Source of the DNA: the human T2T-CHM13v2.0 reference genome, Homo sapiens
Assembly (NCBI GenBank): GCA_009914755.4
Contig: CP086569.2
Coordinates: forward strand, 61,664,001-61,728,000
Direction: 5' to 3'
DNA length: 64,000 nt
Shown: piece by piece, positions 24,201 to 64,000 of the stretch
How positions within the stretch are numbered: position 1 is the stretch's first letter
Layout: each line of letters begins with the position of its first letter
The notes under the pieces: model-generated
Database searches by the model: none
What the model saw: only the letters and a program-made list of their open reading frames with translations
Told to the model about the DNA's origin: nothing
Made by a program: the position numbers and the translations under genes

Positions 24201-24827
24201 GGAATCGCAAGGAATTGATGTGAATGGAACGGAATGGAATGGAATCCAAAGGAATGGAATAGAATGGAATGGAATCGAATTGAAAGGACTCGAATGGAAA
24301 TCACTCGAATAGAATGCAATTTAATAAAATAGGATCAAATGTAATGGAATGGAATGGAAAGGAATCGAAACGAAAGGAATGGAGACAGATGGAATGGAAT
24401 GGAACAGAGAGCAATGGTATAGAATGGAATGGAATCATCTGGAATGGAATTGAATGGAATGGAATAACATGAAATGGACTGGAATGGAATGGAATGCCCT
24501 TGAATTAAATGGACTGGAATGGAATGGACTCGAACAGAGTGGAATGGAAAGTGTTGAAATAGAATGGAATGGACTCCTTTGGAATGGTCTAGTATGCAAT
24601 GCAATCGACTGGCAGGGAATCAAAAGGAATGTAATCGAATGGATTGGACTGGAATGCAATGGACTCGAATAGATTGGAAACGGAATGCAAAGGAATGGAA
24701 TGGAATAGTATGGAATGGAATGGAAAGGAATGGAGTGGAATAGACTAGAGTGGAATGGAATGGACTCAAAAGCAATGGACTGGAATGGAACATTCTTGAA
24801 TGGACTGGAATCAAACGGAATGGAATG
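21274..24827. repeat. DYZ1/HSat3 HOR copy 7 (3554 bp variant)
   Basis: Anchor ORF recurs at 21346 and 24900. It has a 15-bp duplication (gaatgcaatcgaatg x2) near 21640-21670 and a compensating ~10-bp deletion near 21690 (ORF 21542 reads GIERNGIKW where other copies read GIERNVIKW). Confidence 0.85.
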
Positions 24828-26795: not shown

Positions 26796-28361
<1,566 letters not shown>

Positions 28362-28925
28362 ATATTTTTCAAATGAAAAAAAATTTCAAAGCTACTCTGC
28401 TTGGTACAATAATCAAATGTATAAACTGAGGAATAAAACATAACCATGAAACATACTTATAACTGCATATGGAAAATACAGAGGATAATTTTTTAAATAA
28501 CATATTTTGAAAGCCTTAACTAGTAATTGAAAGAGTTGGCATTTGAAAGGCCAGTATGAATATACCTTCAAAGCAGCAACACAGGTTCCCCATGAGAAAA
28601 ATCAAACTCAGGGAAAATGAAACCACAAAGGTTCAATCTCTTCTGACCTTTGAAAGACACAGCACAGACAGTGGCCCTTAGGACCAAGAGCAGGAGACCC
28701 CTAATCCCGTCACCATGGCGATAGGGCATAAACATTGCTGGGTGAGGGCACAATCCACATTGAGGGGTCCAAATGCTGCCAGGAAGACAGAAGTGCTTCT
28801 ACATAGACCGAAAGGTCACTGAAGGCTCAGAGTTTTGATTCAAAAACTGAATCCCAAGCCCACACGTTATTGTGCTGCGCTTCTTAAAACAAGTTATGAG
28901 ATGGGAAATAGGGCACCCACAAACA
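28362..28925. other. Non-satellite, non-Alu ~565-bp segment of DYZ2 unit (moderate GC, origin unknown); recurs once per unit (~30775, 33182, 35589, 38004, 40413, 42826, 45239, 47654, 50038)
   Basis: The segment runs from catatttttcaaatgaaaaaaaatttcaaagctactctgcttggtac... to ...gggaaatagggcacccacaaacatacgtatac, and lies between the Alu and the AT-rich core. I do not recognise it as a named repeat family. Confidence 0.6.
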
Positions 28926-37705
<8,780 letters not shown>

Positions 37706-38003
37706 TTTTTTTTTAGAGAGGGTCTTGCCCTGTTGCACAGGGTGGACTACAATGGCGTCATCTTTGCTCACTGCAACATCTGCCTCACGGGTCCAAGCGA
37801 TTGTCCTCCCTCAGCCTCCCAGGTAGCTGGGACTACACCACACTGGGACTACACCAGCTGCCACCGTGCCTAGCTAATTTTTTGGATTTTTCGTAGTGAC
37901 AGCGTTTCACTGTATTGGCCAGGATGGTCTTGATCTGTTCACCTTGTGATCCCCTTGCCTTGGCCTCCAAATTTGCTGGGACTACAGGCCTGAGCCAAGA
38001 TAC
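37706..38003 (-). mobile_element. Alu SINE copy within DYZ2 unit 5
   Basis: Same Alu as at 28064. It carries private variants (gggtcttgccctg, ggactacaatggcgtc). Confidence 0.95.
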
Positions 38004-40114
38004 ATATTTTTCAAATGAAAAAAAATTTCAAAGCTACTCTGCTTGGTACAATAATCAAATGTATAAACTGAGGAATAAAACATAACCATGAAACATACTT
38101 ATAACTGCATATGGAAAATACAGAGGATAATTTTTTGAATAACATATTTTGAAAGCCTTAACTAGTAATTGAAAGAGTTGGCATTTGAAAGGCCAGTATG
38201 AATATACCTTCAAAGCAGCAACACAGGTTCCCCATGAGAAAAATCAAACTCAGGGAAAATGAAACCACAAAGGTTCAATCTCTTCTGACCTTTGAAAGAC
38301 ACAGCACAGACAGTGGTCCTTAGGACCAAGAGCAGGAGACCCCTAATCCCGTCACCATGGCGATAGGGCATAAACATTGCTGGGTGAGGGCACAATCCAC
38401 ATTGAGAGGTCCAACTGCTGCCAGGAAGACAGGAGTGCTTTTACATAGACCGAAAGGTCATTGAAGGCTCAGAGTTTTGTTTGAAAAACTGAATCCCAAG
38501 CCCACAGGTTATTGTGCTGCGCTTCTTAAAACAAGTTATGAGATGGGAAATAGGGCACCCACAAACATACGTATATATTATGTATATAATAATATACAGT
38601 ATCATATATATAATATGTATAACCTATGTAAAATATTGTTTTACATCCTGCATCTTATATTATATATATTGTATATAATATAATAATTGATAATATATAA
38701 GATTATATTTATACATTATGACATATAATATATATTATACTTTATGACATATATAATATATATTATATATCATATATAGAATATATTATATGGTTAATAT
38801 ACGTATTATATATAACTATACATTATATATATTATTTGTAATATATCTGTTATATATAATATGCATTATATATAATATATATATTATGTCTATGTTATAT
38901 ATAGTATAAAACAACATATAATTATATATAATTGTATACATAAAATATGACATATAATATATATTTTATTTTATGACATATAATATATATTATATATAAT
39001 ACGTTGTATGTATGATACCTATATTAAATATATATTATAAGACTATGCTATTAAATACATGTCATATATGTTATCTATTATATATTTTACATAGAATATA
39101 CTGGTTACTTATAATATGTTCTATGTTACCTATAATGTATAATTTATTACATATAATAGGATGAATGTCATATATTATATATAATTTATAATATACAATA
39201 TGTGGAATGTGATATATATAAGGTAAAATATATGATATATGATATACAGTATATGATATATAACATACAATATATGATACACAATATATATGGTATACAA
39301 TATATATTTTATGATATGTATTCTATATGTTTTACATTCTCTTATATATACCTATTTGAAATTATATATAACTGTATAATATTTTATGTAAATATGTAAT
39401 ATAATATGTAAAACTATGTAATATATTATATATAACTATATATTATGTTATCTATAGTTTTAGTACATAATTTACATAAAATATCATAATATAATATTTA
39501 TTATATTATTTTTTATTACAAAATATATATTATATATCACAGAATATAAGTTACATACATAATATTAAAATATAGATTATATGATGATTTATTAAATACC
39601 ATATATATCATGTATCATATATCGTATAATATATATTATGCATTATATAATATGCATGTTGTCTGTTATGTGATACATATAACTATATATATAATTATAT
39701 TATTACATGTATAACTACATAAACATGTAATTCTATATATTTTCATTTATAACATATATAATTATATAATCATATATAATTATTTATATTCTATAAAAAA
39801 TTATATCATTGTATATATTATAATATATATCAATTATAATATGTACTAAAAATATATATATTATATATCATATATGATATAGTATATATGTTATATATCA
39901 TATTACATATAACTATGTATTATGTTATCTATAATTATATATTTTCCTACATAAGATGTATAATATGTATTATATATTATATATGTTATGTAACCTATAT
40001 AGTATAGATAAGATGACACAGGGTAAATATTATATACTATGACGTATAAAATATATGAGGTTATATGTTAGATATAAAGCATATTACATAACATATAATA
40101 TATATCATATATAA
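37706..40114. repeat. DYZ2 unit 5 (~2409 bp)
   Basis: Alu starts at 37706 and the ORF anchor sits at 38210. Confidence 0.85.
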
Positions 40115-40412
40115 TTTTTCTTTAGAGAGAGTCTTGACCTGTTGCACAGGGTGGACTACAATGGCGCCATGTTTGCTCACTGCAACATCTGCCTCACGGG
40201 TCCAAGCGATTGTCCTCCCTCAGCCTCCAAGGTAGCAGGGACTACACCACCCTGGGACTACACCAGCTGCCACCGTGCCTAGCTAATTTTTTGGATTTTT
40301 CGTAGTGACAGCGTTTCACTGTATTGGCCAGGATGGTCTTGATCTCTTCACCTTGTGATCCCCTTGCCTTGGCCTCCAAATTTGCTGGGATTACAGGCCT
40401 GAGCCAAGATAC
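40115..40412 (-). mobile_element. Alu SINE copy within DYZ2 unit 6
   Basis: Same Alu as at 28064. Its poly-T is interrupted (tttttcttt). Confidence 0.95.
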
Positions 40413-42527
40413 ATATTTTTCAAATGAAAAAAAATTTCAAAGCTACTCTGCTTGGTACAATAATCAAATGTATAAACTGAGGAATAAAACATAACCATGA
40501 AACATACTTATAACTGCATATGGAAAATACAGAGGATAATTTTTTAAATAACATATTTTGAAAGCCTTAACTAGTAATTGAAAGAGTTGGCATTTGAAAG
40601 GCCAGTATGAATATACCTTCAAAGCAGCAACACAGGTTCCCCGTGAGAAAAATCAAACTCAGGGAAAATGAAACCACAAAGGTTCAATCTCTTCTGACCT
40701 TTGAAAGACACAGCACAGACAGTGGTCCTTAGGACCAAGAGCAGGAGACCCCTAATCCTGTCACCATGGCGATAGGGCATAAACATTGCTGGGTGAGGGC
40801 ACAATCAACATTGAGAGGTCCAACTGCTGCCAGGAAGACAGGAGTGCTTTTACATAGACCGAAAGGTCATTGAAGGCTCAGAGTTCTGTTTCAAAACCTG
40901 AATCCCAAGCCCACACGTTATTGTGCTGCCCTTCTTAAAACAAGTTATGAGATGGGAAATAAGGTACCCACAAACATACGTATAGATTATGTATATAACA
41001 ATATACAGTATCATATATATAATATATATAACCTATATATAATATTGTTTTACATCCTGCATCTTATATTATATATATTGTATATAATATAATAATTGAT
41101 AATATATAAGATTATATTTATACAATATGACATATACTATATATTTTACTTTATGACATATATAATATATATTATATATCATATATAGAATATATTATAT
41201 GGGTAATATACGTTTTATATATAACTATACATTATATATATTTTTTGTAATACATCTGTTATATATAATATACATTATATATAATATATATATTATGTCT
41301 ATGTTATATATAGTATAAAACAACATATAATAATATATAATTGTATACATAAAATATGACATATAATATATATTTTATTTTATGACGTATAATATATATT
41401 ATATATTATATATAATACGTTCTATGTATGATACCTATATTAAATATATATTATATGACTATGCTATTAAATACATGTCATATTTGTTATATATTATATA
41501 TTTTACATAGAATATACTGGTTATATATAATATATTCTATGTTACCTATAATGTATAATTTATTACATATAATATAATGAATGTCATATATTATATATAG
41601 TTTATAATACAATATGTGGAATGTGATATATATAACATAAAATATATGATATATGATATACAATATATGATATATAACATACAATATATGATACACAATA
41701 TATATGGTATACAATATATATTTTATGATATGTATTCTATATGTTTTATATTCTGTTATATATACCTATTTGAAATTATATATAACTGTATAATATTTTA
41801 TGTAAATATGTAATATAATATAAATAACTATGTATTATATTATATATACTATATATTGTGCTATCTATAGTTTTATTACATAATTTACATAAAATATCAT
41901 AATATAAAATTTATTATATTATTTTATATTACATAATATATATTATATATAACACAATATAAGCTACATACATAATATTAAAATATAGATTATATGATGA
42001 TATATTAAATATCATATATATCATGTATCATATATTGTATATTATATATTATACATTATATAATATGCATGTTGTCTGTTATGTGATATATATAACTATA
42101 TATATAATTATATTATTATATGTATAACTACATAAACATGTAATTCTATATATTTTCATTTATAATATATATAATTATATAATCATATATAATTATTTAT
42201 ATTCTATAAAAAATTATATCATTATATAAATTATAATATATATAAATTATAATATGTACTAAAAATATATATATTATATATCATATATGATATAGTATAT
42301 ATGTTATATATCATATTACATATAACAATGTATTATGTTATCTCTAATTATATATTTTCCTATATAAGATGTATAATATGTATTATATATTATATATGTT
42401 ATGTAACCTATATAGTATATATAAGATGACACAGGGTAAATATTATATACTATGACGTATAAAATATATGAGGATATATGTTAGATATAAAGCATATTAC
42501 ATAACATATAATATATATCATATATAA
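40115..42527. repeat. DYZ2 unit 6 (~2413 bp)
   Basis: Alu starts at 40115 and the ORF anchor sits at 40619. Confidence 0.85.
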
Positions 42528-44940
<2,413 letters not shown>

Positions 44941-45238
44941 TTTTTTTTTAGAGAGGGTCTTGACCTGTTGCACAGTGTGGAGTACAATGGCGCCATCTTT
45001 GCTCACTGCAACATCTGCCTCACGGGTCCAAGCGATTGTCCTCCATCAGCCTCCCAGGTAGCTGGGACTACACCACACTGGGACTACACCAGCTGCCACC
45101 GTGCCTAGCTAATTTTTTGGATTTTTCGTAGTGACAGCGTTTCACTGTATTGGCCAGGATGGTCTTGATCTGTTCACCTTGTGATCCCCTTGCCTTGGCC
45201 TCCAAATTTGCTGGGATTACAGGCCTGAGCCAAGATAC
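44941..45238 (-). mobile_element. Alu SINE copy within DYZ2 unit 8
   Basis: Same Alu as at 28064. Confidence 0.95.
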
Positions 45239-47355
45239 ATATTTTTCAAATGAAAAAAAATTTCGAAGCTACTCTGCTTGGTACAATAATCAAATGTATA
45301 AACTGAGGAATAAAACATAACCATGAAACATACTTATAACTCCATATGGAAAATACAGAAGATAATTTTTTAAATAACATATTTTGAAAGCCTTAACTAG
45401 TAATTGAAAGAGTTGGCATTTGAAAGGCCAGTATGAATATACCTTCAAAGCAGCAACACAGGTTCCCCATGAGAAAAATCAAACTCAGGGAAAATGAAAC
45501 CACAAAGGTTCAATCTCTTCTGACCTTTGAAAGACACAGCACAGACAGTGGTCCTTAGGACCAAGAGCAGGAGACCCCTAATCCCGTCACCATGGCGATA
45601 GGGCATAAACATTGCTGGGTGTGGGCACAGTCCACATTGAGAGGTCCAACTGCTGCCAGGAAGACAGGAGTGCTTTTACATAGACCGAAAGGTCATTGAA
45701 GGCTCAGAGTTCTGTTTCAAAACCTGAATCCCAAGCCCACAAGTTATTGTGCTGCGCTTCTTAAAACAAGTTATGAGATGGGAAATAGGGCACCCACAAA
45801 CATACGTATACATTATGTGTATAACAATATACAGTATCATATATATAATATATATAACCTATGTATAATATTGTTTTACATCCTGCAACCTATATTATAT
45901 ATATTGTTTATAATATAATAATTGATAATATATAAGATTATATTTATACAATATGACATATACTATATATTATACTTTATGACATATATAATATATATTA
46001 TATATCATATATAGAATATATTATATGGTTAATATACGTATTATATATAACTATACATTATATATATTATTTGTAATACATCTGTTATATATAATATACA
46101 TTATATATAATATATATATTATGTCTATGTTATATATAGTATAAAACAACATATAATAATATATAATTGTATACATAAAATATGACATATAATATATATT
46201 TTATTTTATGACATATAATATATATTTTATATTATATATAATACGTTGTATGTATCATACCTATATTAAATATATATTATATGACTATGCTATTAAATAC
46301 ATGTCATATATGTTATATATTATATATTTTACATAGAATATACTGGTTATATATAATATATTCTATGTTACCTATAATGTAGAATTTATTACATATAATA
46401 TAATGAATGTCATATATTCTATATAATTTATAATATACAATATGTGGAATGTGATATATATAACATAAAATATATGATATATGATATACAATATATGATA
46501 TATAACATACAATATATGATACACAATATATATGGTATACAATATATATTTTATGATATGTATTATATATGTTTTACATTCTGTTATATATACCTATTTG
46601 AAATTATATATAACTGTATAATATTTTATGTAAATATGTAATATAATATAAATAACTATGTAATATATTATATATACTATATATTGTGTTATCTATAGTT
46701 TTATTACCTAATTTACATAAAATATCATAATATAATTTTTATTATATTATTTTATATTACATAATATATATTATATATCACACAATATAAGTTACATACA
46801 TAACACTAAAATATAGATTATATGATGATATATTAAATATCATATATATCATGTATCATATATTGTATATTATATATTATACATTATATAATATGCATGT
46901 TGTCTATTATGAGATATATATAACTATATATATAATTATATTATTATATGTATAACTACATAAACATGTAATTCTATATGTTTTCATTTATAATATATAT
47001 AATTATATAATCATATATAATTATTTATATTCTATAAAAAATTATATCATTATATAAATTATAATATATATAAATTATAATATGTACTAAAAATATATAT
47101 ATTATATATCATATATGATATAGTATATATGTTATATATCATATTACATATAACAATGTATTATGTTTTCTCTAATTATATATTTTCCTATATAAGATGT
47201 ATAATATGTATTATATATTATATATGTTATGTAACCTATATAGTATATATAAGATGACACAGGGTAAATATTATATACTATGACGTATAAAATATATGAG
47301 GTTATATGTTAGATATAAAGCATATTACATAACATATAATATATATCATATATAA
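44941..47355. repeat. DYZ2 unit 8 (~2415 bp)
   Basis: Alu starts at 44941. The anchor ORF is disrupted here, but the underlying sequence is present at ~45445. Confidence 0.85.
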
Positions 47356-49741
<2,386 letters not shown>

Positions 49742-50037
49742 TTTTTTTTTAGACAGAGTTTTGTCCTGTTGCACAGGTTGCAGTACAATGGCGCCATCTT
49801 TGCTCACTGCAACATCTGCCTCACGGGTTCAAGCGATTGTGCCCCCTCAGACTCGCAGGTAGCTGGGAGTACACCACACTGGGGCTACACCAGCTGCCAC
49901 CATGCCTAGCTAATGTTTTGGATTTTTAGTAGTGACAGCGTTTCATTGTATTGGCCAGGATGGTCTTGATCTCTTCACCTTGTGATCCCCTTGCCTTGGC
50001 CTCCAAATTTGCTGGGATTACAGGCCTGAGCCAAGAT
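49742..50037 (-). mobile_element. Alu SINE copy within DYZ2 unit 10 (most diverged copy)
   Basis: Same Alu with more substitutions (agacagagttttgtcctg, caggttgcagtac, gttcaagcgattgtgccccctcagactcgcagg). Confidence 0.9.
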
Positions 50038-51507
50038 ATATATTTTTTAAATGAAAAAATATTTCAAAGGTATTCTGCTTGGTACAATAATCAAATATAT
50101 AAATTGAGGGATAAAACATAACCATGGAACATATTTATAACTGCATATGGAAAATACAGAGGATAATTTTTTAAATAACATATTTTGAAAGCATTAACTG
50201 GTAATTTGAAGAGTTGGCATTTGAAAGGCCAGTATGAATATACCTTCAAAGCAGCAACACAGGTTCCCCATGGGGAAAATCCAACTCAGGGAAAATAAAA
50301 CCACAAAGGTTCACTCTGTTCTGACCTTTGAAAAACACAGCACAGACAGTGGCCCTTAGGACCAAGAGGAGGAGATCCCTAATCCCGTCACCATGGCGAT
50401 AGGGCATAAACATTGCAGGATGAGGGCACAAAACACATTGAGAGGTCCAACTGCTGCCAGGAAGACAGGAGTGCTTTTACATAGACCCAAAGGTCATTGA
50501 AGGCTCAGTGTTTTGTTTCAAAAACTGAATCCCAAGCCCACACATAATTATGCTGCGCTTCTTAAAAAAAGTTATGACATGGGAAATAGGGCACCCACGA
50601 TTACATCTACACATTATGTATATAATAATATATAGAATCTTATATATAATATATGTAACATATATATATAATACTGTTTTACATCTTGCATTTATATTAT
50701 ATATATTATATGTATTATAATAACTGGTAATGTATAAGTATTATATTTATACACTATGATATATAATAATTATATTTTATGACATATATAATATATTTTA
50801 TATATCATATACAAAATATATTATATGGTTAATATACGTTTTAAATATATAATATACATTATATATATTATATCTACGTTATATGTAACATTCACTATAG
50901 ATAATATATATATTATATCTAGCTTATATATAATATAAAATAAAATATAATAATATATAATTGTATATACAAAATATGACATATAATATATATTATATAT
51001 TATGACATATATATGATATATATTATATATCATATATAATATGTTGTATGTATAATACATATATTAAATATATATTATATGTCTATGTTATTTATTATAT
51101 GTAATATATGTTATATATTACATATTTGACATAGAATACATGTGTTACATAGAATATATTCTATGTTACATATAACGTAGAATTTATTATATGTAGTATA
51201 ATGTATGTCATATATTATAAATACTTTATAATATACAATATGTGGAATGTGATATATATAACATGTAATATATGATATATGATATACAATATAAGATATA
51301 TAACATACAATATATGATACATAATATATATGGTATACAATATATATTTTATGTTATATATTATATAAGTTTTATATTTTATTATATATAACTATTTAAA
51401 ATTATATATAACTGTATAATATTATACGTAAATATAAAATATAATATATATAACCATATATTATGTTATATATTATTTTATTACATACTTTCCATAATAT
51501 ATCATAT
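49742..51507. repeat. DYZ2 unit 10, partial (diverged edge variant; truncated at unit phase ~1765 by the DYZ1 junction)
   Basis: Alu starts at 49742 and the ORF anchor sits at 50246. The AT-rich core ends at ...ccataatatatcatat|ggactctttggaatgg. Confidence 0.8.
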
Positions 51508-54422
51508 GGACTCTTTGGAATGGTCTAGTATGCAATGCAATCGACTGGCAGGGAATCAAATGGAATGTAATCGAATGGATTGGACTGGAATGCAATGGAC
51601 TCGAATAGATAGGAAACGGAATGCAAAGGAATGGAATGAAATAGTATGGAATGGAATGGAAAGGAATGGAGTGCAATAGACTAGAGTGGAATGGAATGGA
51701 CTCGAAAGCAATGGACTGGAATGGAACTTTCTTGAATGGGCTGGAATCAAACGGAATGGAATGCCATGCAATCAAATAGAATGAAAGAGAATCAAATCCA
51801 ATCGAATGGATTGGAAAGTAATTGACTCAAATGGAATGGATTAGAATGGAAGGCAAAGGAAAGGAATCTATTGGATTGGACTGTAATGGAATGGAATAGA
51901 AGGGATTGGAATGGAATCGAATGGAATGGACTGCAATGGAAAGGATTCGAATGGAATGAAAAAGAATTGAATGGAATAGAACAGAATGGAATCTAATCGA
52001 ATGAAATGGAATGGAATAGAAAGGATTCGATTGGAATGCAATCGAAAGGAATGGAATCGAATGGAATGGAATAAAATGGAAGAAAACTGGCAAGAAATTT
52101 AATCGAAATGAATGGAGTGTTATGGAACGGACTCAAAAGGAATTGAATGTAATAGAATGGAGTGGAGTGGACTCGAATATAATGGACTGGAGTGGAATGA
52201 AATCACAAGGAATGGGAACGAATGGAATGGAATGGAAAGGAATGGAATCGAATGGAAAGGAATCGAATGGAAGGGAATGAAATTGAATCAACAGGAATGG
52301 AAGGGATTAGAATAGACTGTAATGGAATGGACTCGAATAGAATGGACACGAATGCTCAAATTGAATGGACTTGAATAGAATGGAAACGAAAGGAATGTCA
52401 TCGAATGGAATTGAATCGATTGGAATGATATCGCATAGAATGGAGTGGAATCAAATGGAATTGAATCAAAAGTAAAGGAAGCGAATGGACTGAAATGAAA
52501 TGGAATGGAATTGAATGGAAAGTAATGCAATGGAATAGAATGGAACGAAATTTCACGGAATGGAATCAAACAGAATGGAATCAAATCAATGGAATCAAAT
52601 CAAATGGAATGGAATGGAATGGAATGGAATAGATTGGATTGGAAGGGATTGGAATGCAATGGAATGGAAAGGACTCGAATTTCATGAAACGGAATGGAAT
52701 GAATTGGAACGGAATGGACTCGAATGGAATGGAATGTCATGGAATGACATCAAATGGAATGGAATCAAATGGAATGGCATCGAATGCAATGGAATGTTAT
52801 GGAATGGAATGTCCTCTAATGGAATGGATTCGATTGGAATGGAATCAAATATAATGGAGTCGAATGAAATGGAATTGAAAGGAATGGGATCGAATAGAAT
52901 GGAATATACTGGAATGTAATGTAATGAAGTCGAATGTAATTGACTGGATTGGAATGTACATGAATATAATGTAATCGAATGGAAAGTAATCCAATGGAAT
53001 AGAATCTAATGCAATAAAACTGACTCAAATGGAATAGAATGTAATGGAATGCACTGCAGTGCAATGGAATGGATTGGAATGGAATGAAATGCAATGGAGT
53101 GGAATGGAATGGGATGGAATGGTATGGAATGGATTGTAATGGTCTGGAGTGAAATGGACTGGAAAGGAATGGACTCAAATTGAAAGGGATCGAAAGGAAT
53201 GGAGTCAAATGGAATGTTCTGGAATGGAATGAACTCGAATGTAATGCAATCCAATAGAATGGAATCGAATGGAATGGAATATAAAGAAATGGAACCGAAG
53301 AGAATGGAAACAAATGGAATGGAATTGCACGGAATTGAATCGAATCGAATCTAATGTAATTGAACGGAAAAAATGGAACTGAATAGAATGGAAAACAATG
53401 GATTCGACTGGCATCTAATAGAATGAAATGGAATGCAGTGAGTTGGAGTGGATTGTAATGGAGTTGAATGGAATGGGGTGTATTTGAATTGAATGGAGTG
53501 GAGTGGAGTAAACTGGAGTGGAATGGAATAGAATGGGCAGGCATGGAATTGAAAGGCGTGGAGTGGAGTGGAATTGAGAGGAGTGGAATGGAGTAGGGTG
53601 GATTGTAGTGGAGAGTATTGGAAAAGAGTGGACTGGAATGGAATGGAATGGAATGGAGTGGAATGGAATGGAATTGAGTGAAGTGGAGTGGAGTGGAATG
53701 GAGAGTAATGGAGTGGAGTGGACTTGATTGGAGTAGATAGCAGTACATTGGACTGTACGGGATAGAAGTGGCTTGGAGTGCAATGGAGCTGAGTGGAATG
53801 GAATGGAATGGATTGGAATGGACTGGAAAGGAATGGAATGGAATGGATTTAAATGGCAGGGAATCAAATCGAATTGAATCATATTGAAAGAAGTCAAATC
53901 GACTGGAGGAAAGAAATCGAATGAAATCGAATGGAATGAATGGAAGAGAGTGCAATGTTATAGAATGGAATGGAGACAGATGGAATGGAATGGAACAGAG
54001 AGCAATGGTATAGAATGCAATGGAATCATATGGAATAGAATTGAATGGAATGGAATAACATGAAATGGAATGGAATGGAATGGAAGGATCTTGAATTAAA
54101 TGGACTGGAATGGAATGGACTCGAACGGAGTGGAATGGAAAGGATTGAAATAGAATGGAATGGACTCCTTTGGAATGGTCTAGTATGGATGCAATCGACT
54201 GGCAGGGAATCAAAAGGAATGTAATCGAATGGATTGGACTAGAATGCAATGGACTCGAATAGATTGCAAACGGAATGCAATGGAATGGAATGGAATAGTA
54301 TGGAATAGAATGGAGAGGAATGGAGTGGAATAGACTAGAGTGGAATGGAATGGACTCGAAAGCAATGGACTGGAATGAAACGGTCTTGAATGGAATGGAA
54401 TCAAACGGAATGGAATGGAATG
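51508..54422. repeat. Rearranged HSat3/DYZ1-type unit (~2915 bp): ~110 bp of deletions near the start and a middle section replaced by a divergent block
   Basis: By comparison with the left HOR, 51508-52100 covers phase 3270 to 440 with deletions and 52100-53330 covers phase 440 to 1680. The stretch 53330-53950 is non-canonical, and 53950-54422 covers phase 3060 to 3524. Confidence 0.7.
53330..53950. repeat. Divergent GGAGT/GTGGA-rich pentameric block inside an HSat3 unit (unknown sub-family)
   Basis: The block carries gagtggagtggaatggagtagggtggattgtagtggagag and tggagtggacttgattggagtagatagcagtacattggactgtacggg. It replaces ~1.4 kb of canonical HOR sequence, and nothing similar occurs in the 8 left copies. 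Confidence 0.7.
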
Positions 54423-57400
54423 CAATGCAATCAAACGGAATGGAATAAAATAGAATGAAAGAGAATCAAATGGCATTGAATCGAAAGGAATCGAACGGAT
54501 TGGAAAGGAATAGAATGGAATGGAATGGAATTGACTCAAATGGAATGGAATAGAATGGAATGGAGTCGAATGGAAGGCAAAGGAATGGAATCTATTGAAA
54601 TGGGCTGTAATGGAATGGAATGGAAGGGATTGGAATGGACTCGAATGGAATAGACTACAATAGAAAGGATTCGAATGGAATGAAAAAGAATTGAATGGAA
54701 TAGAACAGAATGCAATCAAATCGAATGAAATGGAATGGAATAGAAAGGAATGGAATGAAATGGAATGGAAAGGATTCGAATGGAATGCAATCGAACGGAA
54801 TGTAATCGAACGCTATGAAATAAAATGGAAGAAAACTGGCAAGAAATGGAATCGAAATGAATGGACTGTTATGGAATGGACACAAAGGGAATTGAATGTA
54901 ATGGAATGGAGTGGAGTGGACTCGAATATAATGGACTGGGATGGAATGGAATCACATGGAATGGGAACGAATGGAATGGAATGAAAAGGAATGGAATCGA
55001 ATGGAAAGAAATCGAATGAAACGGAATGAAATTGAATCAACAGGAATGGAAGGGATTAGAATAGAGTGGAATGGAATGAACTCGAATAGAAAGACACGAA
55101 TGCTCAAATTGAATGGACTCGAATGGAATGGAAACGAAAGGAATGTCATCGAATGGAATTGAATCGATTGGAATGAAATTGCATAGAATGGAGTGGAATC
55201 AAATGGAATTGAATCGAATAGAAAGGAAGCGAATGGACTGAAATGAAATGGAATGGAACTGAATGGAAAGTAATGCAATGGAATAGAATGGAACGAAATT
55301 TCACGGAATGAAATCAAACAGAATGGAATCAAATCAATGGAATATAATCAAATGGAATGGAATGGAATGGAAAGGAATGGAATGGAATACATTGGATTGG
55401 AAGGGATTGGAATGAAATGGAATGGAAAGGACACGAATTTCGTGAAACGGAATGGAATGAATTGGAATGGAATGGACTCGAATGGAATGGAATGTCATGG
55501 AATGGCATCAAATGGAATGGAATCAAATGGAATGGAATCGAATGCAATGGAATGTTATGGAATGGAATGGAATGTATTGGAATGGAATGTCCTCTAATGG
55601 AATGGATTCGAGTGGAATGGAATCGAACATAATGGAGTTGAATGAAATGGAATTGAAAAGAACGGGATCGAATAGAATGGAATATACTGGAATGTAATGT
55701 AATGAAGTCGAATATAATTGACTGGAATGGAATGTACATGAATGGAATGTAATCGAATGGAAAGTAATCCAAAGCAATAGAATCTAATGCAATAAAATCG
55801 ACTGAAATGAAATAGAATGCAATGGAATGGAGTGCAGTGCAATGGAAAGGAAAGGAATGGAATGCAATGGATTGGAATGGAATGGAATGGAATGGAATGG
55901 AAAGGAATGTAATGGAATGGAATGCAATGGAATAGGATGGAATGGAATGGATAGTAATGGACTGGAGTGAAATGGACTGGAAAGGAATAGACTCAAATCG
56001 AAAGGGCTCGAAAGGAATGGAGTCAAATGAAATGGTCTGGAATGGAATGAACTCGAATATAATGCAATCCAATAGAATGGAATCGAATGGAATGGAATAT
56101 AAAGAAATGGAATCGACGAGAATGGAAACAGATGGAATGGAATTGAATGGAATGGAATTGAATGGAATGGGCAGGAATGGAATGAAATTGTATGGAATAG
56201 AAGAGAATAGAATGGAAAGCAATGGATAAGAAAGGAATGGATTGGAATGGAAGGGAATGTAGTGTAATGGACTGGCATGGAATAAACTGGAATGCTACGG
56301 TCTCGAATGGAATAAAAATGTATGGAAAGGAATGCAATGAAACGGAATCGAATGTCATAGAATGTAATGGAATGCAAAAAAATGGAGTCCAAAATCATTG
56401 ACTGGAAAGGCTGGGTGTCGAAAGGAATTGACTCCAATGGAATGGAATCAAATGGAATGGAAGTGAATAGAATCGAACTAAATCGAATGGAATGGAATTG
56501 ATAGGAAGGGAATGGAAAGGAATGGAATGATTTGGCATGGAATGGAATCGAATGGACTCGAATGGAATGGAATGGAATGCAATGGAATGGAATGTATTAG
56601 AATGTAATGAACTTTAATGGAATGCACTCGAATGGATTAGACTGGAACGGAATGTTCTGGAAGTGAATGGACTCCAATGGAATGGATTCAAAAGGAATGG
56701 AAACGAACGGAATGGAATCTAATGAAATGGAATTAAATGTAAAGGAATCAAATCGAATAGCACAGAATTGAATTGAATGGAATCGAATGCAATGGAATCT
56801 AATGAAACGGAAAGGAAAGGAATGGAATGGAATGGAATGGGCTGGAATGGAATGGAATCGAAACGAATGGAACGGAATAGAACTGAAGAGACTTGAATGG
56901 AATGCACAGGAATGGAAGGGAGTGTAATTGAAGGTTCTCGAAAAGACTGGAATCGAATGGAATGGAATTGAATGGAACGGAATAGAGTCGAATGGAATTG
57001 AATGGAATGGAATGGAGTAGAGTGAAATGGAATCGAGTCACAAGGAATGGACAGGAATAGAACGGTCTCGAATTGAATGGAATCATATGGAATGGAATCC
57101 AACGGAATGGAATGGACAGCAACGGAATGGAATGCACTCGAATGCAATGGAGTCGAAACTATTGGAATGGAATAGAATGGACTCGACTGGTACGGACTCC
57201 AATGGAATGGAATCGAAGGGAATGGAATCGAAAGGAATGGACTCGAAGTGAAAAGACTGCAATAGAAAGGTCTCGAATGGAATGGAAATTAATGGAATGG
57301 AATGGAATCGAATGACATGGAGTCAAAAGGAATGGAATCGAATGGCAAGAAAACGAATGTAATGGAATCGCAAGGAATGGATGTGAACGGAACGGAATGG

Positions 57401-57995
57401 AATGAAATCAAAAGGAATGGAATAGAATGGAATGGAAACGAATGGAATGGACTAGAATGGAAATGACTCGAATAGAATGGAATTTAACAAAATAGAATCA
57501 TATGTAAAGGAATGGAATGGAAAGGAATCGAAACGAAAGGAATGGAGACAGATGGAATGGAATGGAACAGAGAGCAATGGTATATAATGGAATGGAATCA
57601 TATGGAATGGAATTGAATGGAATGGAATAATATGAAATGGAACGGAAAGGAATGGAATGCACTTGAATTAAAGGGACTGGAATGGAATGGACTCGAACGG
57701 AGTGGAATGGAAAGGATTGAAATAGAATGGAAAGGACTCCTTTGGAATGGTCTAGTATGCAATGCAAACGACTGGCAGGGAATCAAAAGGAATGTAATCG
57801 AATGGATTGGACTGGAACACAATGGACTCGAATACATTGGAAACAGAATGCAATGGAATGGAATGGAATAGTATGGAATGGAACGGAAAGGAATGAAGTA
57901 GAATGGACTAGAGTGGAATGGAATGGACTCGAAAGCAATGGACTGGAATGGAACGATCTTGAATGGACCGAAATCAAACGGAACGGAATGCAATG
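54423..57995. repeat. HSat3/DYZ1-type HOR copy, right array (3573 bp variant)
   Basis: The phase-start string caatgcaatcaaacggaatggaataaaatagaatgaaagagaatc sits at 54423. The next phase start is at 57996. Confidence 0.75.
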
Positions 57996-60900
57996 CAAGG
58001 CAATCAAATGGAATGGAATAAAAGAGAATGAAAGAGAATCAAATGCAATTGAATCGAATGGAATCGAATGGATTGGAAAGGAATAGAATGGAATGGAATG
58101 GAATTGACTCAAATGGAATGGACTAGAACGGAATGGAGTCGAATGGAAGGCAAAGGAATGGAATCTATTGGAATGGACTGTAATGGAATGGCATGGAAGG
58201 GATTGGAATGGACTCGAATGGAAAGGACTGCAATAGAAAGGATTCGAATGGAATGAAAAAGAATTGAATGGAATAGAACAGAATGGAATCAAATCGAATG
58301 AAATGGAATGGAATAGAAAGGAATGGAATTAAATGGAATGGAAAGGATTCAAATGGAATGCAATCGAACGGAATGCAATCGAATGGAATGGAATCGAACG
58401 GAATGGAATAAAATGGAAGGAAACTGGCAAGAAATGGAATCGAAATGAATGGAGTGTTATGGAACGGACTCAAAAGGAATTGAATGTAATAGAATGGAGT
58501 GGAGTGGACTCGAATATAATGGACTGGAATGGAATGGAATCACATGGAATGGGAACGAATGGAATGGAATGGAAAGGAATGGAATCGAATGGAAAGGAAT
58601 CAAATGGAAGGGAATGAAATTGAATCAACAGGAATGGAAGGGAATAGAATAGAGTGTAATGGAATGGACTCGAATAGAATGGACACGAATGCTCAAATTG
58701 GATGGACTCGAATGGAATGGAAACGAAAGGAATGTCATCGAATGGAATTGAATCGATTGGAATGAAATGGCATAGAATGGAGTGGAATGAAATGGAATTG
58801 AATCGAAAGGAAAGGAAGCGAATGGACTGAAATGAAATGGAATGGAATTGAATGGAAAGTAATGCAATGGAATAGAATGGAACGAAATTTCACGGAATGG
58901 AATCAAACAGAATGGAATCAAATCAATGGAATATAATCAAATGGAATGGAATGGAATGGAAAGGAATTGAATGGAATAGATTGGATAGGAAGGGATTGGA
59001 ATGCAATGGAATGGAAAGGACTCGAATTTCATGAAACGGAATGGAATGAATTGGAATGGAATGGACTCGAATGGAATGGAATGTCATGGAATGGCATCAA
59101 ATGGAATGGCATCGAATGCAATGGAATGTTATGGAATGGAATGGAATGTATTGGAATGGAATGTCCTCTAATGGAATGGATTCGAGTGGAATGGAATCGA
59201 ATATAATGGAGTCGAATGAAATGGAATTGAAAGGAATGGGATCGAATAGAATGGAATATACTGGAATGTAATGTAATGAAGTCGAATGTAATTGACTGGA
59301 ATGGAATGTACATGAATGGAATGTAATCGAATGGAAAGTAATCCAATGAAATAGAATCTAATGCAATAAAACCGACTCAAATGGAATAGAATGTAATGGA
59401 ATGGAGTGCAGTGCAATGGAATGGAATGGAATGGAATGGAATGGAGTGGAATGGAATGGAATGGGATGGAATGGTATGGAATGGATAGTAAAGGACTGGA
59501 GTGAAATGGACTGTAAAGGAATGGACTCCAATTGAAAGGGCTCGAAAGGAATGGAGTCAAATGGAATGGTCTGGAATGGAATGAACTCGAATGTAATGCA
59601 ATCCAATAGAATGGAATCGAATGGAATGGAATATAAAGAAATGGAATCGACGAGAATGGAAACAGATGGAATGGAATTGAAAGGAATGGAATTGAATGGA
59701 ATGGGCATGAATGGAATGAAATTGTATGGAATAGAAGAGAATAGAATGGAATGCAATGGATAAGAAAGGAATGGATTGGAATGGAAGGGAATGTAGTGTA
59801 ATGGACTGGCATGGAATAAACTGCAATGCTACGGACTCAAATGGAATAAAAATGTATGGAATGGAATGCCATGAAACGGAATCGAATGTCATAGAATGTA
59901 ATGGAATGCAAAAAAATGGACTCCAAAATCATTGACTGGAAAGGCTGGGTGTCGAAAGGAATTGACTCCAATGGAATGGAATCGAATGGAACGGAAGTGA
60001 ATAGAATCGAACTAAATCGAATGGAATGGAATTGATAGGAACGGAATGGAAAGGAATGGAATGATTTGGCATGGAATGGAATCGAATGGACTCGAATGGA
60101 ATGGAATGGAATGCAATGCAATGGAATGTATTAGAATGTAGTGAACTTTAATGGAATGAACTCGAATGGATTCGACTGGAATGGAATGTTCTGGAAGTGA
60201 ATGGACTCCAATGGAATGGATTCAAAAGGAATGGAATCGAAGGGAATGGAATCTAATGGAATGGAATGAAATGGAAAGGAATCAAATCGAATAGCACGGA
60301 ATTGAACTGAATGGAATCGAATGCAATGGAATCTAATGAAACGGAAAGGAAAGGAATGGAATGGCATGGAATGGGCTGGAATGGAATGGAATCGAAACGA
60401 ATGGAAAGGAATCGAACTGAAGAGACTGGAATGGAATGCACTGGCATGGAAGGGAGTTTAATGGAAGGTTCTCGAAAAGACTGGAATCGAATGCAATGGA
60501 ATTGAATGGAACGGATATAGAGTCAAATGGAATTGAATGGAATGGAATGGAGTAGAGTGAAATGGAATCGAGTCACAAGGAATGGACAGGAATAGAACGG
60601 TCTCGAATTGAATGGAATCGTATGGAATGGAATTCAACGGAATGGAATGGACAGCCACGGAATGGAATGCACTCGAATGCAATGGACTCGAAACTAATGG
60701 ACTGGAATCGAATGGACTCGACTGGTACGGACTCCAATGGAATGGAATCGAATGGAATGGAATCGAACGGAATGGACTCGAAGTGAAAAGAGTGCAATGG
60801 AAAGGTCTCGAATGGAATGGAAATTAATGCAATGGAATGGAATCGAATGAAATGGAGTCAAAAGGAATGGAATCGAATGGCAAGAAATCGAATGTAATGG

Positions 60901-61514
60901 AATCACAAGGAATGGATGTGAACGGAACGGAATGGAATGGAATCAAAAGGAATGGAATCGAATGGAATGGACTCGAATGGAAATGACTCGAATAGAATGG
61001 AATTCAACAAAATAGAATCAAATGAAATGGAATGGAATGGAAAGGAATCGAAACGAAAGGAATGGAGACAGATGGAATGGAATGGAACAGAGAACAATGG
61101 TATATAATGGAATGGAATCATATGGAATGGAATTGAATGGAATGGAATAATATAAAATGGAATGGAAAGGAATGGAATGCACTTGAATTAAATGGACTGG
61201 AATGGAATGGACTCGAACGGAGTGGAATGGAAAGGATTGAAATAGAATGGAATGGACTCCTTTGGAATGGTCTAGTATGCAATGCAAACGACTGGCAGGG
61301 AATCAAAAGGAATGTAATCGAATGGATTGGCCTGGAATCAATGGACTCGAATACATTGGAAACGGAATGCAATGGAATGGAATGGAATAGTATGGAATGG
61401 AACGGAAAGGAATGAAGTAAAATGGACTAGAGTGGAATGTAATGGACTCGAAAGCAATGGACTGGAATGGAACGATCTTGAATGGACCGGAATCAAACGG
61501 AAAGGAATGCAATG
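57996..61514. repeat. HSat3/DYZ1-type HOR copy, right array (3519 bp)
   Basis: The phase-start string caaggcaatcaaatggaatggaataaaagagaatg occurs at 57996 and 61515. Confidence 0.8.
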
Positions 61515-64000
61515 CAAGGCAATCAAATGGAATGGAATAAAAGAGAATGAAAGAGAATCAAATGCAATTGAATCGAATGGAATCGAATGGATTGGAAAGG
61601 AATAGAATGGAATGGAATGGAATTGACTCAAATGGAATGGACTAGAACGGGATGGAGTCGAATGGAAGGCAAAGGAATGGAATCTATTGGAATGGACTGT
61701 AATGGAATGGCATGGAAGGAATTGGAATGGACTCGAATGGAAAGGACTGCAATAGAAAGGATTCGAATGGAATGAAAAAGAATTGAATGGAATAGAACAG
61801 AATGGAATCAAATCGAATGAAATGGAATGGAATAGAAAGGAATGGAATGAAACGGAATGGAAAGGATTCAAATGGAATGCAATCGAATGGAATGCAATCG
61901 AATGGAATGGAATCGAACGGAATGGAATAAAATGGAAGGAAACTGGCAAGAAATGGAATCGAAATGAATGGAGTGTTATGGAACGGACTCCAAAGGAATT
62001 GAATGTAATAGAATGGAGTGGAGTGGACGCGAACATAATGGACTGGAATGGAATGGAATCACATGGAATGGGAACGAATGGAATGGAATGGAAAGGAATG
62101 GAATCGAATGGATAGGAATCAAATGGAAGGGAATGAAATTGAATCAACAGGAATGGAAGGGAATAGAATAGACTGTAATGGAATGGACTCGAATAGAATG
62201 GACACGAATGCTCAAATTGGATGGACTCGAATGGAATGGAAACGAAAGGAATGTCATCGAATGGAATTGAATCGATTGGAATGAAATGGCATAGAATGGA
62301 TTGGAATGAAATGGAATTGAATCGAAAGGAAAGGAAGCGAATGGACTGAAATGAAATGGAATGGAATTAAATGGAAAGTAATGCAATGGAATAGAATGGA
62401 ACGAAATTTCACGGAATGGAATCAAACAGAATGGAATCAAATCAATGGAATATAATCAAATGGAATGGAATGGAATGGAAAGGAATTGAATGGAATAGAT
62501 TGGATAGGAAGGGATTGGAATGCAATGGAATGGAAAGGACTCGAATTTCATGAAACGGAATGGAATGAATTGGAATGGAATGGACTCGAATGGAATGGAA
62601 TGTCATGGAATGGCATCAAATGGAATGGAATCAAATGGAATGGCATCGAATGCAATGGAATGTTATGGAATGGAATGGAATGTATTGGAATGGAATGTCC
62701 TCTAATGGAATGGATTCGAGTGGAATGGAATCAAATATAATGGAGTCGAATGAAATGGAATTGAAAGGAATGGGATCGAATAGAATGGAATATACTGGAA
62801 TGTAATGTAATGAAGTCGAATGTAATTGACTGGAATGGAATGTACATGAATGGAATGTAATCGAATAGAAAGTAATCCAATGAAATAGAATCTAATGCAA
62901 TAAAACCGACTCAAATGGAATAGAATGTAATGGAATGGAGTGCAGTGCAATGGAATGGAATGGAATGGAATGCAATGGAGTGGAATGGAATGGAATGGGA
63001 TGGAATGGTATGGAATGGATAGTAAAGGACTGGAGTGAAATGGACTGTAAAGGAATGGACTCCAATTGAAAGGGCTCGAAAGGAATGGAGTCAAATGGAA
63101 TGGTCTGGAATGGAATGAACTCGAATGTAATGCAATCCAATAGAATGGAATCGAATGGAATGGAATATAAAGAAATGGAATCGACGAGAATGGAAACAGA
63201 TGGAATGGAATTGAAAGGAATGGAATTGAATGGAATGGGCACGAATGGAATGAAATTGTATGGAATAGAAGAGAATAGAATGGAATGCAATGGATAAGAA
63301 AGGAATGGATTGGAATGGAAGGGAATGTAGTGTAATGGACTGGCATGGAATAAACTGGAATGCTACGGTCTCAAATGGAATAAAAATGTATGGAATGGAA
63401 TGCCATGAAACGGAATCGAATGTCATAGAATGTAATGGAATGCAAAAAAATGGACTCCAAAATCATTGACTGGAAAGGCTGGGTGTCGAAAGGAATTGAC
63501 TCCAATGGAATGGAATCGAACGGAATGGAAGTGAATAGAATCGAACTAAATCGAATGGAATGGAATTGATAGGAACGGAATGGAAAGGAATGGAATGATT
63601 TGGCATGGAATGGAATCGAATGGACTCGAATGGAATGGAATGGAATGCAATGCAATGGAATGTATTAGAATGTAGTGAACTTTAATGGAATGAACTCGAA
63701 TGGATTCGACTGGAATGGAATGTTCTGGAAGTGAATGGACTCCAATGGAATGGATTCAAAAGGAATGGAATCGAAGGGAATGGAATCTAATGGAATGGAA
63801 TGAAATGGAAAGGAATCCAATCGAATAGCACGGAATTGAATTGAATGGAATCGAATGCAATGGAATCTAATGAAACGGAAAGGAAAGGAACGGAATGGCA
63901 TGGAATGGGCTGGAATGGAATGGAATCGAAACGAATGGAATGGAATCGAACTGAAGAGACTGGAATGGAATGCACTGGCATGGAAGGGAGTTTAATGGAA
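61515..64000. repeat. HSat3/DYZ1-type HOR copy, right array (partial, runs off window)
   Basis: This copy is near-identical to 57996-60480. Its ORF pairs are offset by 3519 or 3534. Confidence 0.8.

What the first reader, a model, noticed from the sequence alone, without database searches (positions are those of the whole stretch)
51470..51560. DYZ2 to DYZ1 junction resumes HSat3 at a different HOR phase (~3270), so ~1.3 kb of HOR phase is skipped across the DYZ2 block
The left DYZ1 is cut at phase ~1970 and the right DYZ1 restarts at ggactc(c)tttggaatggtctagtatgc, which lies at phase ~3270. DYZ2 enters at unit phase ~1150 and leaves at ~1765 after a whole number of units plus ~615 bp. The DYZ2 block is therefore not a simple insertion into one DYZ1 unit. 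The flanks come from different array registers, or the event deleted HSat3 sequence. The first right-hand unit is also internally rearranged.
Basis: seen in the sequence. Interest (0 to 1): 0.55.

Follow-up and report, generated by a model that had tools for sequence, protein, structure and literature searches.

The report
Y-chromosome satellite block junction, out of phase
It looks like an old, blunt, copied breakpoint scar inside the already known alternating satellite architecture of human Yq12, so it is real but ordinary.

Summary
Phase is counted from window position 1 in a 3,549-bp DYZ1 unit.

- **Left junction (J1):** the left DYZ1 array ends at window 26795, phase 1972. DYZ2 homology begins at 26794.
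- **Right junction (J2):** DYZ2 ends at 51506 and DYZ1 resumes there at phase 3266/3267. About 1,293 bp of DYZ1 phase is skipped.
- **DYZ2 block:** it runs for 10 units plus 621 bp, entering at phase ~1147 and leaving at ~1768, counted from the Alu edge.
- **Junction type:** both junctions are blunt, with 1-2 bp of ambiguous overlap, no filler and no target-site duplication.
- **First right-hand unit:** it is rearranged. It carries about 65 bp of small deletions, and ~640 bp of foreign GGAGT-rich satellite replaces phases ~1683-3078.

The new evidence is an independent metagenome contig, L001. It carries the same DYZ2-to-DYZ1 breakpoint and is collinear with the window over 1,841 bp at 95.2% identity. 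It shares the junction-specific deletions and 117 derived states of the last DYZ2 unit. J2 is therefore an old module that was copied as a block, not an assembly artefact or a private event.

My best reading is that J1 and J2 are independent non-homologous joins, later spread by unequal exchange, so contiguous phase was never expected. This fits the published Yq12 picture. Interest is low to moderate.

The parts
1..26795 (+). Left DYZ1 (HSat3) array, about 7.55 units of ~3,549 bp, GGAAT-rich strand on +. It has one HaeIII (GGCC) site per unit at phase 1818 and ends at phase 1972.
   Evidence: Period, GGCC sites, end phase. Units L1-L5 are 99.1-99.6% alike, L6 98.5% and the junction-proximal L7 ~96.9%.
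26794..26795 (.). J1, the DYZ1-to-DYZ2 junction: ...GTCGAAAGGA[AT]AAATAATATACATT. The 2 bp 'AT' could belong to either side. There is no filler.
   Evidence: In-register comparison with seven left DYZ1 units, three right DYZ1 units and nine DYZ2 units. Blast ends overlap by 2 bp.
26794..51506 (-). DYZ2 (HSat1B) block of 24,713 bp: ten units of 2,391-2,416 bp plus a 621-bp partial unit. Each full unit has a ~290-bp diverged Alu in minus orientation, a GC-richer part and a long AT-rich part. Both junctions lie in the AT-rich part.
   Evidence: Period, ten Alu hits at ~76-77% identity and the GC profile, unit table and identities.
48495..51506 (-). The diverged last DYZ2 units, U10 and partial U11. 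They are 87-90% identical to U1-U9 and 92.8% to each other, and form the DYZ2 side of the J2 module.
   Evidence: L001 shares 117 derived states with U11, 29 of them not shared with U10.
51506..51507 (.). J2, the DYZ2-to-DYZ1 junction that is the finding: ...AATATATCAT[A]TGGACTC-TTTGGAATGG. One bp ('A') is ambiguous. DYZ1 resumes at phase 3266/3267.
   Evidence: The breakpoint is identical in metagenome contig L001.
51506..54159 (+). R1, the first right-hand DYZ1 unit, rearranged and 2,654 bp long. It covers phases 3266-3549 and 1-~1682 with four small deletions (15, 15, 20 and 15 bp), then the foreign segment X, then phases ~3079-3265.
   Evidence: Tile mapping, pairwise alignments. The four deletions are shared with L001 and absent from R2, R3 and the left units.
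53328..53967 (+). X, ~640 bp of GGAGT-rich HSat-like sequence with no close copy elsewhere in the window. It replaces DYZ1 phases ~1683-3078. Its boundaries are fuzzy to about 20 bp.
   Evidence: (best other hits 73-87% over short stretches).
54160..64000 (+). Right DYZ1 array: units R2 (3,572 bp), R3 (3,520 bp) and partial R4. It is a variant subtype without the canonical HaeIII site and contains the full phase range, including 1973-3265.
   Evidence: R3 and R4 are 98.8% alike and ~95.5% identical to left units; R2 is ~94.6-95.4% to all other full-length units.

Best explanation
J2 is a fossil non-homologous join between the AT-rich part of a DYZ2 unit (phase ~1768) and DYZ1 phase 3266. It was made once, by end-joining or illegitimate unequal exchange with at most 1 bp of microhomology. 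J1 (DYZ1 phase 1972 joined to DYZ2 phase ~1147) is a second, independent join, or the original boundary between two adjacent arrays. One illegitimate exchange across such a boundary creates a DYZ1-DYZ2-DYZ1-DYZ2 arrangement. Ordinary homologous unequal exchange and large duplications then multiply the blocks and carry both junction modules along. Under this history the phases on the two sides of a DYZ2 block were never contiguous, so the ~1.3 kb 'skip' is a by-product and not a deletion inside one unit. Units next to the junctions escape homogenisation and decay, which explains the diverged U10/U11, the rearranged R1 and the divergence gradient.

Shown: the phases, the blunt junctions, the second diverged copy of J2 and the edge gradient. 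Inferred: the single origin of J2, the independence of J1 and J2, and the order of events.
For: - Phases are non-contiguous in both satellites, with unambiguous placement.
- Both junctions are blunt, with 1-2 bp of ambiguous bases, no filler and no target-site duplication.
- Contig L001 has exactly the same J2 breakpoint and is collinear with window 50348-52187 over 1,841 bp at 95.2% identity, with 87 evenly spread substitutions and 1 indel.
- L001 shares R1's four 15-20 bp deletions.
- L001 shares 117 derived states of the last DYZ2 unit, 29 of them exclusive to the pair. The whole module was therefore copied after it had already diverged.
- Identity falls toward both block edges: L1-L5 are 99.1-99.6% alike, L6 98.5%, L7 96.9%. 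U1-U9 are 95-98% alike, against 87-90% for U10/U11. R1 and R2 are more diverged than R3/R4.
- The left and right arrays are distinct DYZ1 subtypes.
- Literature: Yq12 is 86 alternating blocks shaped by iterative duplications spanning several blocks and by unequal exchange (Rhie et al., 10.1101/2022.12.01.518724). Array edges are more diverged than centres (Hallast et al., 10.1101/2022.12.01.518658).
Against: - Only one extra copy of J2 was recovered and none of J1, so 'all junctions fall in two classes' is untested.
- The provenance of L001 is unknown (a metagenome contig, presumably human contamination). It could be a short-read consensus of several paralogues, or come from an acrocentric short arm.
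- The two DYZ1 break phases lie at the only two GGAAT(T/G)GACTCC motifs of the unit. Fully independent breakpoints do not predict this.
- A single event with a deletion would leave the same present-day picture.
Confidence: 0.6

Rival explanations
1. One-step insertion with loss. A multi-unit DYZ2 fragment was captured at a double-strand break in a DYZ1 unit, and 1,293 bp (or 1,293 bp plus whole units) of DYZ1 was lost at the same time. The resulting D1-D2-D1 structure was later amplified.
For: It gives the same present-day anatomy: blunt ends, 1-2 bp microhomology, both DYZ2 ends in the AT-rich, palindrome-rich part. It is compatible with L001. The similar 12-nt motif at both DYZ1 break phases could reflect a single local event.
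Against: - The flanking arrays are different subtypes (~95.5% identity, different periods, HaeIII site lost on the right), although independent homogenisation after insertion could produce that.
- The J2 side is far more decayed than the J1 side, which is not expected if both ends date from one event.
- T2T-Y has an even number of blocks, 86. That fits an amplified (D1-D2)n better than an insert flanked by DYZ1 on both sides. This is weak evidence, because inversions at the ends complicate the count.
Confidence: 0.2
2. Simple in-phase insertion at phase 1972|1973, followed by a secondary microhomology-mediated deletion. That deletion ran between TGACTCC (phase 1973, then next to DYZ2) and TGGACTCC (phase 3267) and removed 1,294 bp.
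For: GACTCC occurs only 4 times per 3,549-bp unit, and GGAAT(T/G)GACTCC only at phases 1968 and 3263, which are exactly the two break phases. An anchored 13-nt similarity test gives P about 0.002.
Against: - The similarity is confined to ~12 nt. Wider windows are not significant (P = 0.09-0.47) and the window size was chosen after seeing the data.
- A 200-bp local alignment around the two phases scores below the unit-wide average (81 against a mean of 89.5).
- The deletion would have to start within a few bases of the junction.
- The junction carries the two-G form (TGGACTC) of the downstream motif, so no hybrid signature remains.
Confidence: 0.13
3. Assembly artefact or a very recent private rearrangement: a mis-join of DYZ2 and DYZ1 reads, or a somatic or cell-line event.
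For: Satellite arrays are error-prone in assembly, and the 24.7-kb DYZ2 block is unusually small for Yq12 (published minima are 11-20 kb).
Against: An independent contig from another data set has the identical breakpoint plus 1.16 kb and 0.68 kb of collinear flanks. It is 4.8% diverged from the window and shares module-specific variants with it. A mis-join or a recent event cannot produce that.
Confidence: 0.02

Closest known systems
Alternating DYZ1 (HSat3A6) / DYZ2 (HSat1B) blocks of human Yq12, as described in T2T-Y (Rhie et al. 2023) and in 43 Y assemblies (Hallast et al. 2023)
   Same: The unit sizes agree: ~3.55 kb, and 2,413 bp as the modal DYZ2 length. DYZ2 has the tripartite structure with a ~290-bp diverged Alu. 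Both arrays have the same orientation, the edges are more diverged than the centres, and the small block size lies within the published range.
   Different: The papers I could read give block numbers, sizes and divergence but no base-level junction phases. Rhie et al. say only that boundaries were 'manually refined', and Hallast et al. describe inversion breakpoints. The phase pair 1972|3266, the blunt joins and the conserved J2 module are extra detail, not a different kind of object.
Layered or edge-decayed satellite arrays, for example centromeric alpha-satellite arrays with homogeneous cores and diverged flanks
   Same: Identity declines toward the array ends, and rearranged or foreign pieces occur in the outermost units.
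   Different: Here the edge abuts a second, unrelated satellite rather than monomeric or unique sequence. The edge module itself has been copied (L001).
Tandem or segmental duplication junctions made by non-homologous end joining or microhomology-mediated repair
   Same: The joins are blunt with 0-2 bp of microhomology, and the phases on the two sides are arbitrary.
   Different: The partners are two satellite arrays, so the junction then rides along in later homologous unequal exchanges. The mechanism itself is inferred and was not observed.

Membership tests
DYZ1 / HSat3A6 (human Yq12 3.5-kb repeat) | ~3.5-3.6 kb nested tandem repeat built from diverged GGAAT/CATTC pentamers | tested here: met
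   Modal k-mer spacing is 3549 on the left and ~3534 on the right. The TRF consensus is AATGG-based.
DYZ1 / HSat3A6 (human Yq12 3.5-kb repeat) | One HaeIII (GGCC) site per unit, the classical 3.56-kb HaeIII fragment (from my own knowledge of the literature) | tested here: inconclusive
   Met in all 8 left units, at phase 1818. Not met in the right array, which has only one GGCC, at 61329 and at a different phase. The right array is a diverged variant.
DYZ2 / HSat1B (2.4-kb repeat) | ~2.41-2.42 kb unit made of an AT-rich simple repeat, a ~290-bp diverged 5'-truncated Alu and a GC-richer HSATI part | tested here: met
   The modal period is 2413, the same as Hallast's modal 2,413.
Yq12 alternating block architecture | DYZ1 and DYZ2 arrays directly abut, in the same orientation, with no other sequence between them | tested here: met
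   The two junctions are resolved to 1-2 bp with no filler. Chromosomal location (Y versus acrocentric short arm) cannot be tested with these tools.
Simple insertion of DYZ2 into one DYZ1 unit | DYZ1 phase contiguous across the insert (x | x+1), optionally with a target-site duplication | tested here: not met
   The phases are 1972 on the left and 3266/3267 on the right, and there is no duplicated target.
Retrotransposon or mobile-element insertion | Discrete element ends, poly-A tail and target-site duplication | tested here: not met
   The insert is 10.26 tandem satellite units that begin and end inside the AT-rich part of the unit. It has no target-site duplication.
Recurrent (single-origin, copied) junction module | Identical breakpoint plus shared flank-specific variants in an independent, diverged copy | tested here: met
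   Met for J2: L001 has the same breakpoint, 95.2% identity over 1,841 bp, the shared deletions and 117 shared derived states. For J1 it is inconclusive: there were no hits in two genome-contig scans or in viral contigs, and viral contigs hold no DYZ1 at all.

The most novel reading that the evidence does not exclude
Every DYZ1-to-DYZ2 junction in Yq12 shares one breakpoint pair (DYZ1 1972 | DYZ2 ~1147), and every DYZ2-to-DYZ1 junction shares another (DYZ2 ~1768 | DYZ1 3266, with the decayed U10-U11-R1-X module). The whole >30-Mb alternating heterochromatin would then descend from a single founder DYZ1-DYZ2 'super-unit' made by just two illegitimate joins. The slowly evolving junction modules could serve as phylogenetic markers to reconstruct the order and age of block duplications. 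A further, less likely twist is that the shared GGAAT(T/G)GACTCC motif at both DYZ1 breakpoints marks a preferred breakage or repair site.
Probability: 0.45. Interest if true: 0.45.

Novelty: already known. Interest (0 to 1): 0.25.

Why it matters
This matters only modestly. The alternating DYZ1/DYZ2 architecture, and its evolution by unequal exchange, is published. The junction detail adds three things:

- It shows at base level that DYZ2 blocks are not clean insertions.
- It shows that at least the DYZ2-to-DYZ1 junction is an old module copied with its flanks.
- It offers a practical handle: junction modules could act as markers for reconstructing how Yq12 blocks multiplied, and perhaps how Y-derived HSat1B reached acrocentric short arms.

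No function is implied.

Tried and rejected
- **Left junction (J1) in other collections.** Two patterns in genome contigs found nothing, and one in viral contigs found nothing.
- **Right junction (J2) in viral contigs.** No hit. A control with native DYZ1 sequence also found nothing, so the viral negatives are uninformative.
- **Plasmid collection.** Megablast of both junctions found no match.
- **Protein route.** A search with the 100-aa junction-spanning ORF (window 51473-51775, minus strand), meant to fish out spurious ORFs from other junction copies, gave 9 word-sharing candidates and none significant. I did not pursue it further.
- **Provenance of L001.** A literature search for PKQM01 found nothing relevant.
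- **Internal DYZ1 sub-repeat.** I tested whether phases 1972 and 3266 are 'homologous' through an ancient sub-repeat. The 200-bp alignment scores below the unit-wide mean, so I rejected the idea. Only a ~12-nt motif is shared.
- **Inverted repeats at the junctions.** They are numerous but generic for AT-rich DYZ2, and nothing is specific to the breakpoints.
- **First 270 bp after J2.** It is 97% identical to left units but 92% to right units, which looked like evidence for a left-array origin. Diagnostic-site analysis shows instead that edge units (L7, R1, R2, L001) are mosaics, in my reading retaining ancestral states. I rejected it as evidence of exchange between the two flanks.
Full report
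**What the window is**

Base composition, tandem-repeat and k-mer spacing analyses divide the 64 kb into three parts:
- a GGAAT-rich array with a modal period of 3,549 bp, at 1-26795
- an AT-rich array with a modal period of 2,413 bp, at 26794-51506
- a second GGAAT-rich array with a period of about 3,534 bp, at 51506-64000

The 2.4-kb unit has a ~290-bp Alu fragment in minus orientation. The unit also has a GC-richer part and a long AT-rich part. The left 3.5-kb unit has one HaeIII site. These are the classical DYZ1 (HSat3A6) and DYZ2 (HSat1B) repeats of human Yq12. Their alternating blocks are described in Rhie et al. (10.1101/2022.12.01.518724) and Hallast et al. (10.1101/2022.12.01.518658).

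**Checking the observation**

- The 298 bp before the left junction match phases 1675-1972 of all seven other left units at 96-97%. The next-best placements reach ~74%.
- The 270 bp after the right junction match phases 3269-3538 at 96-97%, with next-best placements at ~77%.
- Comparison in register with ten DYZ1 units and nine or ten DYZ2 units fixes both joins.
- J1 reads ...GTCGAAAGGA[AT]AAATAATATACATT. DYZ1 ends at 26795 (phase 1972) and DYZ2 starts at 26794.
- J2 reads ...AATATATCAT[A]TGGACTC-TTTGG. DYZ2 ends at 51506 and DYZ1 resumes at 51506/7 (phase 3266/7).
- The bracketed bases could belong to either side. There is no filler and no target-site duplication.
- The skipped DYZ1 phase is 1,293-1,294 bp.
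- With the + strand start of the Alu (28065) as origin, DYZ2 enters at ~1147 and leaves at ~1768. That is ten units of 2,391-2,416 bp plus 621 bp.

**The first right-hand unit**

Tile mapping and pairwise alignment show how unit R1 (51506-54159) is built:
- It runs through phases 3266-3549 and then 1 to ~1682.
- In that stretch it carries four small deletions of 15, 15, 20 and 15 bp near phases 3535, 22-40, 60-80 and 92-120.
- It then contains ~640 bp (about 53328-53967) of GGAGT-rich satellite with no close relative elsewhere in the window.
- It then resumes at phase ~3079.

From R2 onward the right array contains the full phase range.

**The surroundings**

Identity falls toward the block edges:
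- Left units L1-L5 are 99.1-99.6% alike, L6 is 98.5% and the junction-proximal L7 is 96.9%.
- DYZ2 units U1-U9 are 95-98% alike. There is then a sharp step at 48495, and U10 and U11 are only 87-90% identical to the rest.
- On the right, R3 and R4 are 98.8% alike and R2 is ~95% identical to them. R1 is rearranged and only ~85-87% identical to the other right-hand units and to most left units.

The interior right units (R3, R4) are only ~95.5% identical to the left units. The right array has different unit lengths and has lost the canonical HaeIII site.

At the 86 sites that distinguish the left consensus from R3/R4, the edge units L7, R1, R2 and L001 are mosaics. I read this as retention of ancestral states at unhomogenised edges. 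It also explains why the first 270 bp after J2 look 'left-like' (97% against 92%). This gradient is the published behaviour of Yq12 arrays.

**Related sequence elsewhere**

An exact-pattern scan of metagenome contigs with the J2 sequence returned one contig, L001 (PKQM01000722.1, 1,841 bp).
- It is collinear with window 50348-52187 over its full length at 95.2% identity, with 87 substitutions and 1 indel.
- The differences are spread evenly: 5.0% in the DYZ2 part and 4.4% in the DYZ1 part.
- The breakpoint is identical. L001 keeps the C that the window copy has lost.
- L001 shares all four R1-specific deletions.
- L001 shares 117 derived states of the last DYZ2 unit relative to the interior consensus, and 29 of them are exclusive to the pair.

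Divergence of 4.8% is far beyond allelic variation between human Y chromosomes, so L001 is a paralogous copy of the same junction module. J2 is real, old and has been copied together with its already-decayed flanks.

For a rough age I used two literature figures. One is five SNVs in 2.23 Mb of DYZ2 between Y chromosomes separated by ~200 years. The other is 40 de novo SNVs in Yq12 over six transmissions (PMC13252187). Both imply about 1.5-2.5e-7 substitutions per bp per generation. On that rate, 4.8% pairwise divergence corresponds to a few million years. This is my inference and it is crude.

**What could not be found**

J1 patterns found nothing in the bacterial/archaeal genome collection. 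Viral contigs contain no DYZ1 at all, so their negatives mean nothing. Plasmid records had no match. A protein search with the junction-spanning ORF found nothing. The recurrence of J1 is therefore untested.

**Mechanism**

A clean insertion predicts contiguous phase, and that is refuted. The simplest history consistent with all the evidence has three steps:
1. There are two independent non-homologous joins, or an original DYZ1|DYZ2 boundary plus one illegitimate exchange joining DYZ2 phase ~1768 to DYZ1 phase 3266. That exchange immediately creates a D1-D2-D1-D2 pattern.
2. Homologous unequal exchange and the multi-block duplications documented in T2T-Y copy both junction modules.
3. Units next to the junctions escape homogenisation and decay.

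The even block count in T2T-Y (86) fits an amplified (D1-D2)n, but this is weak support. I put this explanation at about 0.6.

**A loose end**

The two DYZ1 break phases lie at the only two occurrences of GGAAT(T/G)GACTCC in the unit, at phases 1968 and 3263. GACTCC occurs just four times per unit. An anchored 13-nt similarity test gives P about 0.002. Wider windows are not significant (P = 0.09-0.47), and the window size was chosen after seeing the sequences. A 200-bp alignment around the two phases is below average for the unit.

This keeps two rivals alive:
- a single insertion event with simultaneous loss of 1.3 kb (about 0.2)
- an in-phase insertion followed by a microhomology-mediated deletion (about 0.13)

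An assembly artefact is essentially excluded by L001 (about 0.02).

**Comparison with what is known, and verdict**

The object is a block boundary inside a published architecture. The papers I could read give no base-level junction phases, so the phase pair and the conserved J2 module are new descriptive detail rather than a new kind of thing. The finding is correct and its interpretation is supported. It would not much surprise a specialist. Its main use would be as a marker system for reconstructing Yq12 block history, which requires mapping all junctions in complete Y assemblies. I could not do that here.

Noticed in passing
window 54160-64000 (for example 56151-56428, 59685-59962, 63219-63496): The right DYZ1 array is a distinct subtype. 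It has no GGCC/HaeIII site at the canonical phase 1818, a 20-bp deletion just upstream of phase 1972, and unit lengths of 3,572 and 3,520 bp. Its interior units (R3, R4) are only ~95.5% identical to the left units.
   Followed up: partly
window ~53328-53967: About 640 bp of GGAGT-rich HSat-like sequence, unique in the window, replaces DYZ1 phases ~1683-3078 in the first right-hand unit. Its origin is unknown. The phases it removes overlap heavily with those skipped across the DYZ2 block (1973-3265).
   Followed up: partly
DYZ1 phases 1968-1979 and 3263-3274 (for example window 1968-1979, 3263-3274, 26791-26795, 51506-51514): Both DYZ1 breakpoints fall at the only two GGAAT(T/G)GACTCC motifs of the 3,549-bp unit. 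The local test gives P about 0.002 but the window size was chosen post hoc, and wider windows are not significant.
   Followed up: yes
window 48495 (boundary between DYZ2 units U9 and U10): There is a sharp step in DYZ2 identity. U1-U9 are 95-98% alike, while U10 and U11 are 87-90% identical to them and 92.8% to each other. They also have a ~15-17 bp deletion near 51473 relative to the other units.
   Followed up: partly
window 24569-26795 (unit L7), phases ~887-1441: The last left unit carries right-array character states at 12 of 19 diagnostic sites in this stretch. Edge units look like mosaics or keep ancestral states.
   Followed up: partly
L001 1-1841 (PKQM01000722.1): A contig deposited as metagenome sequence is evidently human Yq12-type satellite (a DYZ2/DYZ1 junction). 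It is an example of human satellite contamination in microbial data, as the T2T-Y paper discusses.
   Followed up: partly
window 26755-26762 and 51513-51514: Each junction-proximal copy has private changes. Next to J1 the window has CCGAAGTC where all other units have CCAAAATC, which creates a CpG. Next to J2 there is a 1-bp C deletion that L001 lacks.
   Followed up: no
window 26794-51506: The k-mer spacing histogram also shows peaks at ~4,822-4,828 bp. Neighbouring units also pair up in identity (U2-U4 97.4-98.4%, U7-U8 98.0%). This hints at local two-unit or short-range duplications within the DYZ2 block.
   Followed up: no
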